Shown in pieces: positions 7,129-11,431 of a DNA stretch of 64,000 nt (positions within the stretch are counted from its first letter, which is position 1; each line of letters starts with the position of its first letter). This DNA is from Escherichia coli (GTDB lineage: Bacteria; Pseudomonadota; Gammaproteobacteria; Enterobacterales; Enterobacteriaceae). The stretch is from assembly GCF_022846255.1 (NCBI RefSeq), contig NZ_AP025682.1; one strand, given 5' to 3'. A model generated the notes under the pieces. The model worked only from the letters and a program-made list of their open reading frames with translations. It had not been told where the DNA came from and did not search any database. Both the position numbers and the translations under genes were made by a program.

Positions 7129-8378
<1,250 letters not shown>

Positions 8379-8555
8379 TAGAGTAAGTGACTGGTTAATT
8401 TACATTCTGGTCGCGTGCGCAAATACGCTTTTCCTCACACAGTTGTCAAGTGTTACGTTTAGATAATTGCTATCCGGAAAAGCATCTGCTATTTATAGCG
8501 GCCTCATTTTTCCCCCGAACATGGGGATCGATAGTGCGTGTTAAGGAGAAGCAAC

Positions 8556-9011
8556 ATGCAAGAAGGGCAAAACCGTAAAACATCGTCCCTGAGTATTCTC
8601 GCCATCGCTGGGGTGGAACCATATCAGGAGAAGCCGGGCGAAGAGTATATGAATGAAGCCCAGCTGGCGCACTTCCGTCGTATTCTGGAAGCATGGCGTA
8701 ATCAACTCAGGGATGAAGTCGATCGCACCGTTACACATATGCAGGATGAAGCAGCCAACTTCCCGGACCCGGTAGACCGTGCAGCCCAGGAAGAAGAGTT
8801 CAGCCTCGAATTGCGTAACCGCGATCGCGAGCGTAAGCTGATCAAAAAGATCGAGAAGACGCTGAAAAAAGTGGAAGACGAAGATTTCGGCTACTGCGAA
8901 TCCTGCGGTGTTGAAATCGGTATTCGCCGTCTGGAAGCGCGCCCGACAGCCGATCTGTGCATCGACTGCAAAACGCTGGCTGAAATTCGCGAAAAACAGA
9001 TGGCTGGCTAA
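8556..9011 (+). CDS. dksA: RNA polymerase-binding transcription factor DksA
   Basis: Within ORF 8538..9011; ATG 8556 preceded by AAGGAGAA; [32 protein letters not shown]4 zinc finger [25 protein letters not shown]; 151 aa. Confidence 0.93.
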
Positions 9012-9038
9012 TTACAGCCGTTCCATCACGTTTACCAC

Positions 9039-9068
9039 AGGCGGGAAATGCTCCCGCCTTATTTTTTG
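9039..9068 (+). terminator. Intrinsic terminator downstream of dksA, overlapping the gluQ start codon
   Basis: Stem AGGCGGGA / TCCCGCCT (9039-9046 / 9052-9059) followed by TATTTTTTG; the gluQ ATG (9048) lies in the loop. Confidence 0.7.
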
Positions 9069-9974
9069 TTCAAAGAGATGACAGACACACACTATATTGG
9101 TCGCTTCGCCCCCTCTCCTTCCGGCGAGCTTCATTTTGGCTCTCTGATTGCCGCGCTTGGCAGCTATTTACAGGCTCGCGCCCGGCAAGGTCGCTGGCTG
9201 GTACGCATTGAAGATATCGACCCGCCTCGTGAAGTTCCCGGTGCCGCAGAAACTATCCTGCGCCAGCTGGAACATTACGGCCTGCACTGGGACGGCGACG
9301 TTCTCTGGCAATCGCAACGTCACCACGCCTATCGCGAAGCACTCGCCTGGTTACATGAGCAAGGACTAAGTTATTACTGCACCTGCACGCGTGCGCGTAT
9401 TCAAAGCATTGGCGGTATTTACGACGGTCATTGCCGGGATTTGCATCATGGACCAGACAACGCCGCAGTACGTATCCGCCAGCAGCATCCGGTCACCCAG
9501 TTTACTGACCTGCTGCGAGGCATTATTCACGCCGACGAAAAACTGGCACGGGAAGATTTTATTATTCATCGCCGTGATGGTTTGTTTGCCTATAACCTGG
9601 CGGTGGTGGTGGATGATCACTTCCAGGGCGTGAGCGAAATTGTCCGCGGGGCAGATTTGATCGAACCGACGGTGCGGCAAATCTCGCTGTACCAGCTTTT
9701 TGGCTGGAAAGTGCCAGATTACATCCATTTACCGCTGGCGCTTAATCCACAAGGCGCTAAACTTTCCAAGCAGAATCATGCGCCTGCGTTGCCGAAAGGC
9801 GATCCGCGCCCGGTGTTAATCGCGGCACTTCATTTTCTGGGTCAGCAGGTAGAAACACACTGGCAGGATTTCAGCGTCGAGCAAATCCTTCAGTCAGCCG
9901 TCAAAAACTGGACGCTGACCGCCGTGCCTGAGTCGGCAATTGTAAATTCAACATTCTCAAATGCGTCATGCTGA
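9048..9974 (+). CDS. gluQ: Glutamyl-Q tRNA(Asp) synthetase (truncated GluRS paralog)
   Basis: ORF 9048..9974 (308 aa) [33 protein letters not shown] (class I HIGH-like motif), KLSKQ motif near C-terminus. Confidence 0.85.
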
Positions 9975-10033
9975 GCTATGATTAGCCGCTATTTTTTTGT
10001 CCTGAATGATGTTTGACACTACCGAGGTGTACT

Positions 10034-11431
10034 ATTTTTACCCGAGTCGCTAATTTTTGCCGCAAGGTGCTAAGCCGCGAGGAAAGCGAGGCTGAACAGG
10101 CAGTCGCCCGTCCACAGGTGACGGTGATCCCGCGTGAGCAGCATGCTATTTCCCGCAAAGATATCAGTGAAAATGCCCTGAAGGTAATGTACAGGCTCAA
10201 TAAAGCGGGATACGAAGCCTGGCTGGTTGGCGGCGGCGTGCGCGACCTGTTACTTGGCAAAAAGCCGAAAGATTTTGACGTGACCACCAACGCCACGCCA
10301 GAGCAGGTGCGCAAACTGTTCCGTAATTGCCGCCTGGTGGGTCGCCGTTTCCGTCTGGCTCATGTGATGTTTGGCCCGGAGATTATCGAAGTTGCGACCT
10401 TCCGTGGACATCACGAAGGTAACGTCAGCGACCGCACGACCTCCCAACGCGGGCAAAACGGTATGTTGCTGCGCGACAACATTTTCGGCTCCATCGAAGA
10501 AGACGCCCAGCGCCGCGATTTCACTATCAACAGCCTGTATTACAGCGTGGCAGATTTTACCGTCCGTGATTACGTTGGCGGCATGAAGGATCTGAAAGAC
10601 GGCGTTATCCGTCTGATTGGTAACCCGGAAACGCGCTACCGTGAAGATCCGGTACGGATGCTTCGCGCGGTTCGTTTTGCCGCCAAATTGGGCATGCGCA
10701 TCAGCCCGGAAACCGCCGAGCCGATCCCACGCCTGGCAACCTTACTGAACGATATCCCACCGGCACGTCTGTTTGAAGAATCGCTGAAACTGTTGCAAGC
10801 GGGCTACGGTTACGAAACCTATAAGCTGCTGTGTGAATATCATCTGTTCCAGCCGCTGTTCCCGACCATTACCCGCTACTTCACGGAAAATGGCGACAGC
10901 CCGATGGAGCGGATCATTGAACAGGTGCTGAAGAATACCGATACGCGTATCCATAACGATATGCGCGTGAACCCGGCGTTCCTGTTTGCCGCCATGTTCT
11001 GGTATCCACTGCTGGAGACGGCACAGAAAATTGCTCAGGAGAGCGGCCTGACCTATCACGACGCTTTCGCACTGGCGATGAACGACGTGCTGGACGAAGC
11101 CTGCCGTTCACTGGCGATCCCGAAACGTCTGACTACGTTAACCCGCGATATCTGGCAGTTGCAGTTGCGTATGTCCCGTCGTCAGGGTAAACGCGCATGG
11201 AAACTGCTGGAGCATCCTAAGTTCCGTGCGGCATACGACCTGTTGGCCTTACGAGCCGAAGTTGAGCGTAACGCTGAACTGCAACGTCTGGTGAAATGGT
11301 GGGGTGAGTTCCAGGTTTCCGCGCCGCCAGACCAAAAAGGGATGCTTAACGAACTGGATGAAGAACCGTCACCGCGTCGTCGTACTCGTCGTCCACGCAA
11401 ACGCGCACCGCGTCGTGAGGGTACCGCATGA
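10034..11431 (+). CDS. pcnB: Poly(A) polymerase I
   Basis: ORF track 10013..11431 (TTG); conserved N-terminus (M)[13 protein letters not shown] begins at ATT 10034-10036 with GAGG 6 nt upstream, giving 465 aa; nucleotidyltransferase motif [17 protein letters not shown]; basic C-terminal tail. Confidence 0.85.

What the first reader, a model, noticed from the sequence alone, without database searches (positions are those of the whole stretch)
9039..9068. dksA intrinsic terminator encloses the gluQ start codon
A GC-rich hairpin (AGGCGGGA...TCCCGCCT) followed by TATTTTTTG lies 28 nt after the dksA stop. The gluQ ATG (9048) sits inside the hairpin loop and there is no separate promoter-like spacing. 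gluQ expression is therefore predicted to depend on read-through of the dksA terminator, with its ribosome-binding region sequestered in the terminator stem.
Basis: partly seen in the sequence, partly recalled or inferred. Interest (0 to 1): 0.4.

Follow-up and report, generated by a model that had tools for sequence, protein, structure and literature searches.

The report
Leaky dksA terminator upstream of gluQ
This is the already published leaky transcription terminator between the E. coli genes dksA and gluQ; it is real and gluQ depends on read-through of it, but the ATG inside the hairpin loop is an outdated annotation and the true gluQ start codon lies 30 bases further on, outside the hairpin.

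Summary
An 8-bp GC-rich hairpin (9039-9059, loop AAUGC, -15 kcal/mol) followed by TATTTTTTG begins 28 nt after the dksA stop, and an in-frame ATG (9048) sits in its loop.

- Caballero et al. 2012 (Shigella flexneri) showed by reporter fusions that gluQ has no promoter of its own and that deleting or mutating this hairpin raises downstream expression.
- E. coli Term-seq (Adams et al. 2021) puts a very strong, Rho-independent RNA 3' end at window 9063.
- Conway et al. 2014 describe the same internal terminator.

The start-codon part is wrong. Edman sequencing, native N-terminomics, the crystallised 298-aa protein, NCBI PGAP annotation and my comparison of 80 Enterobacteriaceae species all place the real start at ATG 9078, after the hairpin and T-tract. 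The loop ATG occurs only in some Escherichia, and the spacer varies in length in all three reading phases. No ribosome-binding site is therefore hidden in the stem. The true start has no Shine-Dalgarno sequence in any species examined.

Verdict: real feature, already known, low interest. The useful by-product is that the K-12 reference record still carries the wrong 308-aa start.

The parts
8556..9011 (+). dksA coding sequence (stop TAA 9009-9011). Its promoters drive all transcription that reaches the hairpin and gluQ.
   Evidence: PGAP annotation of a 99.9% identical genome, L001 1657-2112 mapped to the window; ORF list.
9039..9059 (+). Terminator hairpin: 5' arm 9039-9046 AGGCGGGA, loop 9047-9051 AAUGC, 3' arm 9052-9059 UCCCGCCU.
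   Evidence: -15.1 kcal/mol, z -3.5; unique in the window; GGCGGG...CCYGCC core present in 74 of 80 Enterobacteriaceae species loci; stem mutagenesis in S. flexneri raises downstream lacZ >2-fold.
9060..9068 (+). T-tract TATTTTTTG. The in vivo RNA 3' end maps at 9063.
   Evidence: Adams et al. 2021 Term-seq: 3' end at MG1655 160097(-), found in all three growth conditions, 3,097,035 reads in LB OD 0.4, Rho score 1.16 (not Rho-dependent), intrinsic terminator score 7.47. The K-12 sequence is identical to window 9013-9073.
9048..9050 (+). ATG in the hairpin loop. It is not the gluQ start codon; it is a lineage-specific coincidence and a legacy annotation.
   Evidence: Present only in the window and three Escherichia loci, plus an unrelated out-of-frame loop ATG in one Kosakonia. 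Lost in E. whittamii (AAUAC) and in E. coli AF16 (AAUUAC). Out of frame, with a stop after 6 codons, in Escherichia sp. MOD1-EC7003. Protein N-termini begin after the second ATG. Still the annotated start in NC_000913.3.
9078..9974 (+). gluQ (gluQRS/yadB) coding sequence, 298 aa, with the true start at ATG 9078 and no Shine-Dalgarno sequence.
   Evidence: PGAP start; PDB 1NZJ/4A91 chains are 298 aa and start MTDTQY; Edman TDTQYIGRFAP; native N-terminomics MTDTQYIGR, TIS NC_000913:160080-160082; the ATG is conserved in all 79 species loci with usable upstream sequence; anti-SD duplex -1.7 kcal/mol here, median +0.6 across 79 species.
9060..9080 (+). Optional weak helix in read-through RNA: the U-tract pairs with AAAGAGAUG, covering the true start codon.
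   Evidence: Appears in the MFE of 9000-9120 but is worth only -2.1 to -3.9 kcal/mol and is not conserved in other genera. Judged unimportant.

Best explanation
The hairpin and T-tract form a leaky Rho-independent terminator that closes the abundant dksA transcription unit inside the thpR(ligT)-sfsA-dksA-gluQ-pcnB-folK gene string. Most RNA polymerases that start at the dksA promoters release the transcript in the T-tract, with the 3' end at 9063. A minority, roughly 10-25%, read through, and those read-through transcripts are the only source of gluQ mRNA because gluQ has no promoter of its own. This sets GluQ-RS synthesis far below that of DksA. On read-through RNA, translation of gluQ starts at AUG 9078. 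That codon lies 19 nt past the stem, beyond the U-tract, and has no Shine-Dalgarno sequence. The AUG in the loop is not used and is not conserved. SHOWN: the hairpin and tail (sequence and folding); the 3' end position and Rho-independence (E. coli K-12 Term-seq and BCM data); the effects of terminator deletion and stem mutation and the absence of a gluQ promoter (S. flexneri reporters); the protein N-terminus (Edman sequencing and native N-terminomics); conservation of the hairpin and of the downstream ATG. INFERRED: that this strain behaves like K-12 and S. flexneri (its sequence is identical to K-12 across the element); the read-through fraction; and how the SD-less start is recognised.
For: Structure. 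In vivo 3' end at window 9063, Rho score 1.16 ('No'), intrinsic terminator score 7.47, and DirectRNA-seq coverage of 250 upstream against 62 downstream (about 25%): (PMC7815308). Reporter genetics in S. flexneri: the fusion without dksA promoters is at baseline, the fusion lacking the intergenic region is 10-fold higher, and stem mutations give >2-fold more (PMC3542578). An internal terminator defining a dksA-specific transcription unit in E. coli K-12 RNA-seq: (PMC4161252). True start at 9078. Comparative data from 80 species loci: hairpin core in 74 of 80; 28 different loop sequences; spacing to the conserved ATG of 12-27 nt in all three phases (30/20/24); loop ATG confined to some Escherichia; compensatory A-U to G-C, U-A and C-G changes in the pairs flanking the invariant core. 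No Rfam family at the site. The region is near-identical in 5424 of 5426 complete E. coli genomes.
Against: Stem mutagenesis relieved only part (>2-fold) of the 10-fold effect seen when the whole intergenic region was removed, so something else in that region may contribute. RT-PCR product across the junction rose 20-fold in stationary phase while both genes changed only 1.3-fold, which hints at regulated rather than constant read-through. The Edman result came from T7-driven overexpression, although the native N-terminomics result agrees with it. The six core G-C pairs never vary, so covariation support is limited to the flanking pairs. Many Enterobacter-group species keep the hairpin but have a poor T-tract (TTGTTACCG), so termination strength is probably not uniform across genera. 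The filter rule of Adams et al. implies a TSS within 200 nt upstream of the 3' end, which I could not inspect.
Confidence: 0.92

Rival explanations
1. One reading: gluQ translation starts at AUG 9048 in the hairpin loop, and its ribosome-binding region (GGCGGGA) is locked in the terminator stem, so the hairpin controls both transcription and translation initiation of gluQ.
For: ATG 9048 is in frame and opens a 308-codon ORF. The 5' arm gives an SD-like duplex of -6.3 kcal/mol with the anti-SD. The K-12 reference record and UniProt P27305 annotate this start.
Against: The N-terminus determined by Edman sequencing is TDTQYIGRFAP, and the native nascent N-terminus is MTDTQYIGR. The crystallised protein is 298 aa and PGAP starts at 9078. 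The loop ATG is absent from 75 of 80 species loci and from E. coli AF16. In one Escherichia species it is out of frame with a stop after 6 codons, and the spacer length varies in all three phases.
Confidence: 0.03
2. The hairpin is the terminator arm of a regulated attenuator, controlled by a protein, a small RNA or a ligand. Read-through into gluQ would then be switched by growth phase or stress rather than being a fixed leak.
For: The junction-spanning RT-PCR product rises 20-fold in stationary phase. The authors themselves raise this possibility. The Term-seq count at the site falls from 3.1 million to 0.25 million between two conditions. The stem sequence is invariant across genera although the surrounding spacer cannot be aligned.
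Against: No Rfam family matches at E<=1, and the authors found no riboswitch. Folding of 9000-9120 shows no competing anti-terminator structure. The 27-nt spacer upstream of the hairpin is not conserved across genera. Invariance of a short G-C stem is also expected from selection on stability alone.
Confidence: 0.12
3. The main selected role of the hairpin is as a 3' protective cap, either for dksA mRNA or for a short stable RNA derived from the dksA 3' end. Termination and the low gluQ expression would be secondary.
For: The Term-seq count at 9063 (3,097,035) is the highest mRNA-linked value in the part of the table I read and is comparable with a tRNA. Retention of this 3' end in Supplementary file 3 implies a TSS within 200 nt upstream. 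The hairpin is retained in Enterobacter-group species even where the T-tract is poor.
Against: No 5' end data could be inspected. No paper mentions a dksA 3' UTR RNA. dksA is itself highly expressed, and Term-seq counts are affected by ligation bias. Reporter data show directly that the element lowers downstream transcription.
Confidence: 0.1

Closest known systems
The dksA-gluQ-rs intergenic terminator of Shigella flexneri 2457T (Caballero et al. 2012, BMC Microbiol 12:226, PMC3542578)
   Same: It is the orthologous element. The hairpin is described in the same way (-14.7 kcal/mol by Mfold, first AUG in the loop, second AUG 27 nt further on), gluQ has no independent promoter, and the terminator lowers downstream expression. 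The true start is the second AUG.
   Different: Nothing substantive. The window is E. coli rather than Shigella, and GluQ residue 5 is His here instead of Gln.
Internal partial terminators that set unequal expression within operons, e.g. the terminator upstream of dnaG in rpsU-dnaG-rpoD and recA-recX read-through
   Same: An intrinsic terminator lies between a highly expressed upstream gene and a weakly expressed downstream gene that lacks its own promoter. [quoted passage not shown]
   Different: These are unrelated genes and sequences, so this is an analogy of mechanism, not homology. The details of the dnaG and recX cases come from the paper's discussion and from my own knowledge, and were not tested here.
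Riboswitch or attenuator-controlled terminators (e.g. preQ1 riboswitches of queuosine genes)
   Same: A terminator hairpin sits immediately upstream of a coding sequence, and the gene is linked to queuosine metabolism.
   Different: There is no aptamer or anti-terminator. No Rfam match was found, folding shows no alternative structure, and the upstream spacer is not conserved. The element lies at the 3' end of another gene, not in a 5' leader that follows a promoter.
Hairpin plus U-run upstream of the E. coli rnd (RNase D) start, reported to be needed for translation (Zhang and Deutscher; recalled from memory, not checked here)
   Same: A terminator-like hairpin followed by a U-run lies just upstream of a start codon with weak canonical initiation signals.
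   Different: For gluQ, no experiment links the U-tract to translation. This is only a lead for the speculative dual-function reading.

Membership tests
Rho-independent (intrinsic) transcription terminator | G+C-rich stem-loop that is stable as nascent RNA | tested here: met
   8 bp with 6 G-C pairs, -15.1 kcal/mol, z -3.53.
Rho-independent (intrinsic) transcription terminator | U-rich tract immediately 3' of the stem | tested here: met
   UAUUUUUUG at 9060-9068, 7 U in 9 nt.
Rho-independent (intrinsic) transcription terminator | RNA 3' ends in vivo map within the U-tract | tested here: met
   Looked up in published Term-seq tables: 3' end at MG1655 160097(-), which is window 9063. The convention that position 51 of the 61-nt string is the 3' end was verified on the thrL row. 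The data are from K-12, whose sequence is identical across 9013-9073.
Rho-independent (intrinsic) transcription terminator | Termination does not require Rho | tested here: met
   Published bicyclomycin DirectRNA-seq: 250/62 untreated against 250/72 treated, Rho score 1.16, flagged 'No'. I recomputed the score from the counts to confirm the column order.
Rho-independent (intrinsic) transcription terminator | Disrupting the stem increases downstream transcription | not testable with these tools
   A published experiment in S. flexneri meets it: >2-fold increase with stem mutations and 10-fold without the intergenic region.
Intra-operon partial terminator (read-through-dependent downstream gene) | The downstream gene has no promoter of its own and is co-transcribed with the upstream gene | tested here: inconclusive
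   The consensus scan finds no sigma-70-like site that could serve gluQ, but such scans are weak evidence. Published reporters and RT-PCR meet the criterion. An unexamined TSS within 200 nt upstream of the 3' end is implied; it would still lie upstream of the hairpin.
Intra-operon partial terminator (read-through-dependent downstream gene) | Termination is incomplete, with measurable read-through | tested here: met
   Downstream/upstream coverage is about 0.25 in DirectRNA-seq, there is a 10-fold reporter difference, and a dksA-gluQ RT-PCR product spans the junction.
   The functional start is ATG 9078, 19 nt downstream of the stem. The loop ATG is not conserved.
Riboswitch / ligand-controlled attenuator | A conserved aptamer or an alternative anti-terminator structure upstream of the terminator | tested here: not met
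   No Rfam hit at E<=1 over 8300-10200 apart from a chance snoRNA match elsewhere. Folding shows no competing structure. The upstream spacer is not conserved across genera.

The most novel reading that the evidence does not exclude
The hairpin plus U-tract may have functions beyond termination. First, on read-through RNA the U-rich tail could act as the loading platform for Shine-Dalgarno-independent (S1-type) initiation at the gluQ start. That start has no SD in all 79 species and always lies 12-27 nt after the hairpin core. Second, the extremely abundant terminated product ending at 9063 could include a short, stable RNA from the dksA 3' end with a regulatory role of its own.
Probability: 0.12. 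Interest if true: 0.4.

Novelty: already known. Interest (0 to 1): 0.1.

Why it matters
The mechanism explains how a cell makes very little of the tRNA-modifying enzyme GluQ-RS from the same promoters that make the abundant stringent-response factor DksA. It has been in the literature since 2012 and is visible in later E. coli transcriptome maps. The practical value of this re-examination is annotation hygiene. The K-12 reference record (NC_000913.3) and UniProt P27305 still start gluQ at the loop ATG (308 aa), whereas four independent lines of evidence support the 298-aa protein.

Tried and rejected
- Rfam scan of 8300-10200 at E<=1 found only a chance snoRNA match at 8787-8839 (E = 0.96), so no known RNA family is present.
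- The promoter scan gave one sigma-70-like hit at 9069-9098. It lies downstream of the hairpin and would start transcription inside gluQ, so I rejected it as a gluQ promoter.
- The second helix, U-tract with AAAGAGAUG (9060-9080), covers the true start codon. It is worth only -2.1 to -3.9 kcal/mol and is absent in other genera, so I rejected it as a meaningful regulator.
- Covariation analysis was largely uninformative. The six core G-C pairs never vary, partly because I selected loci by that core. Only the flanking pairs covary: 5 pairs with double changes, with 44 of 500 shuffles reaching that number and 1 of 500 reaching the covariation score.
- I tried to inspect TSS data. Thomason et al. 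2015 is not held, and Conway et al. 2014 and the Ribo-RET preprint have no supplements held.
- A literature search for a dksA 3' UTR RNA gave no hits. Two paper searches failed on syntax.

Full report
WHAT THE WINDOW IS. The stretch 8400-10100 matches 5424 of 5426 complete E. coli genomes at 95% identity or better. The local gene order is thpR(ligT)-sfsA-dksA-gluQ(gluQRS/yadB)-pcnB-folK. The element under study is near-identical across the species. Window 9013-9073 is identical to the K-12 MG1655 sequence printed in a published Term-seq table.

THE OBSERVATION.
- dksA ends with TAA at 9009-9011.
- Twenty-eight nucleotides later, AGGCGGGA (9039-9046) pairs with TCCCGCCT (9052-9059) around the loop AATGC.
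- The hairpin is followed by TATTTTTTG (9060-9068).
- The loop contains ATG 9048-9050, which opens a 308-codon frame.

The RNA folds into exactly this hairpin at -15.1 kcal/mol, z = -3.5 against dinucleotide shuffles. A generic terminator pattern is not enriched locally (6 found against 4.6 +/- 2.5 expected). A site of this quality, however, is unique in the 64-kb window on both strands and did not occur in 40 shuffles (thresholds set post hoc).

IT IS A WORKING TERMINATOR, AND THIS IS PUBLISHED. Three papers cover it.
- Caballero et al. 2012 (PMC3542578) studied the orthologous locus in Shigella flexneri. dksA and gluQ-rs are co-transcribed. A lacZ fusion without the dksA promoters gave baseline activity, so there is no separate gluQ promoter. 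A fusion lacking the intergenic region was 10-fold more active than one containing it. Mutations that disrupt the predicted stem raised activity >2-fold. [quoted passage not shown]
- Conway et al. 2014 (PMC4161252) use this very operon in E. coli K-12 as their example of a promoter and an internal terminator creating a dksA-specific transcription unit.
- Adams et al. 2021 (PMC7815308) list a Term-seq 3' end at MG1655 160097 on the minus strand in all three growth conditions. I checked on the thrL row that position 51 of the printed 61-nt string is the 3' end. I also checked independently from the annotated gluQ start (160112 minus 15).

Their bicyclomycin data (250 upstream and 62 downstream untreated; 250 and 72 treated) reproduce the listed Rho score of 1.16, flagged as not Rho-dependent. 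The intrinsic-terminator score is 7.47, where >3 is considered predictive. Coverage downstream is about a quarter of that upstream. Together with the 10-fold reporter difference, this suggests roughly 10-25% read-through. That figure is an inference from coarse measures.

THE START CODON IS NOT IN THE LOOP.
- Caballero et al. purified His-tagged GluQ-RS expressed from the native intergenic region. The N-terminal sequence was TDTQYIGRFAP, which follows the second ATG.
- A 2026 N-terminomics study of native E. coli K-12 (PMC13245402) detected the nascent N-terminus MTDTQYIGR. It flags UniProt P27305 as an 'N-terminal truncation (10aa)' with the initiation site at NC_000913:160080-160082, which is window 9078.
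- The crystallised YadB chains (1NZJ, 4A91) are 298 residues and align to residues 11-308 of the long ORF.
- NCBI's PGAP annotates the gene from 9078.
- The K-12 reference record still starts it at 160112, the loop ATG.

COMPARATIVE TEST DONE HERE. I fetched the locus from 80 Enterobacteriaceae species representatives and examined the region upstream of the conserved ATG-x-x-x-x-Y-I-G.
- A GGCGGG...CCYGCC hairpin core lies between dksA and gluQ in 74 of the 80 sequences analysed (79 species loci plus the window).
- The sequence between the arms has 28 different variants.
- The distance from the core to the conserved ATG ranges from 12 to 27 nt and falls in all three phases (30/20/24). This is the signature of non-coding spacer, not of ten codons.
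- A loop ATG occurs only in the window and three Escherichia loci, plus an unrelated, out-of-frame one in a Kosakonia.
- The loop reads AAUAC in E. whittamii and AAUUAC in E. coli isolate AF16. In Escherichia sp. MOD1-EC7003 a 1-nt shorter T-tract puts the loop ATG out of frame, with a stop after six codons.
- The downstream ATG is present in every locus.

The six core G-C pairs never vary, partly by my selection. The flanking pairs show compensatory A-U to G-C, U-A and C-G changes. Support for the structure therefore rests mainly on conservation within an otherwise unalignable spacer, with modest covariation.

HOW gluQ IS TRANSLATED REMAINS THE OPEN POINT. The -20..-1 region of ATG 9078 gives only -1.7 kcal/mol with the anti-Shine-Dalgarno sequence. 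Across 79 species the median is +0.6 and none reaches -6, which is weaker than random positions in the window (median -2.4). Caballero et al. also noted the absence of an SD. The SD-like GGCGGGA (-6.3) belongs to the stem and serves the unused ATG. A weak helix between the U-tract and AAAGAGAUG could cover the true start, but it is worth only -2 to -4 kcal/mol and is not conserved.

ALTERNATIVES CONSIDERED.
- A riboswitch or regulated attenuator is not supported. There is no Rfam match, no competing fold and no conserved upstream spacer. It is not excluded either, because the junction-spanning RT-PCR product rose 20-fold in stationary phase.
- A role as the protected 3' end of a stable short RNA is suggested by two things. 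The Term-seq count is remarkably high: 3.1 million, the largest mRNA-linked value in the part of the table I read and close to a tRNA. The table's filter rule also implies a TSS within 200 nt upstream. I could not obtain 5'-end data to test this, and found no paper on it.
- Many Enterobacter-group species keep the hairpin but have a poor T-tract and an ATG only 14 nt from the core. The strength of termination has probably been tuned differently in different genera.

VERDICT. Novelty: already known. Interest: low.

Noticed in passing
window 9048-9080; NC_000913.3 159186..160112 (L083): The E. coli K-12 reference record and UniProt P27305 still annotate gluQ as 308 aa starting at the loop ATG. 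PGAP genomes, the PDB chains, Edman sequencing and native N-terminomics all support 298 aa starting at 9078. Because of this, the Term-seq table labels the dksA terminator 3' end as 'internal, 15 nt into gluQ'.
   Followed up: yes
window 9063 (MG1655 160097, minus strand): The Term-seq read count at this 3' end is 3,097,035 in LB OD 0.4. That is the largest mRNA-linked value in the first part of the table and is comparable with tRNA aspV (3,519,310). The filter rule for Supplementary file 3 of Adams et al. implies a TSS within 200 nt upstream. A short stable RNA from the dksA 3' end is possible but untested.
   Followed up: partly
window 9058-9077 and the equivalent region in L002-L081: The true gluQ start has no Shine-Dalgarno sequence in any of 79 Enterobacteriaceae species. 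The anti-SD duplex median is +0.6 kcal/mol and never reaches -6, which is weaker than random positions in the window. The upstream 20 nt are about 60% A+U.
   Followed up: partly
window 8486-8508: A second terminator-like hairpin (CTGCTATTTATAGCGG followed by CCTCATTTTT) lies in the sfsA-dksA spacer / dksA leader. It coincides with a published Term-seq 3' end at MG1655 160652, which is window 8508 (48,011 reads, listed as 'orphan'). It is either the sfsA terminator or premature termination in the dksA leader.
   Followed up: no
window 8773: A published Term-seq 3' end lies inside dksA (MG1655 160387, 29,202 reads, Rho score 0.89, intrinsic score 1.04). It is probably an RNA processing site.
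   Followed up: no
window 10034-10036: PGAP starts pcnB at ATT (AUU), a non-canonical start codon. The mechanical ORF list instead begins at TTG 10013. From memory, this agrees with the known AUU start of pcnB.
   Followed up: partly
L026, L035-L037, L039, L043, L045, L046, L054, L056, L058, L062, L066, L075, L080 (Enterobacter, Lelliottia and Yokenella group), about 1150-1200: These species keep a longer hairpin (AAGGCGGGAG...CTCCCGCCTT) but follow it with a poor T-tract (GTTACCGTTGAT). The gluQ ATG lies only 12-14 nt after the stem. This suggests weaker termination or another role for the hairpin in these genera.
   Followed up: no
L048, L049, L055, L074 (Kosakonia and relatives), upstream of 1201: Two hairpins lie in tandem between dksA and gluQ: a strong upstream one (down to -24 kcal/mol) and then the conserved GGCGGGA...TCCCGCC or a variant of it. 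Phytobacter and related loci (L025, L030, L033, L073) instead have a weaker hairpin of the CGGGGAAAATTTCCCG type.
   Followed up: no
E. coli genome collection: Three of the 5425 matches to the dksA-gluQ region are on records labelled as plasmids, and one genome carries two copies.
   Followed up: no
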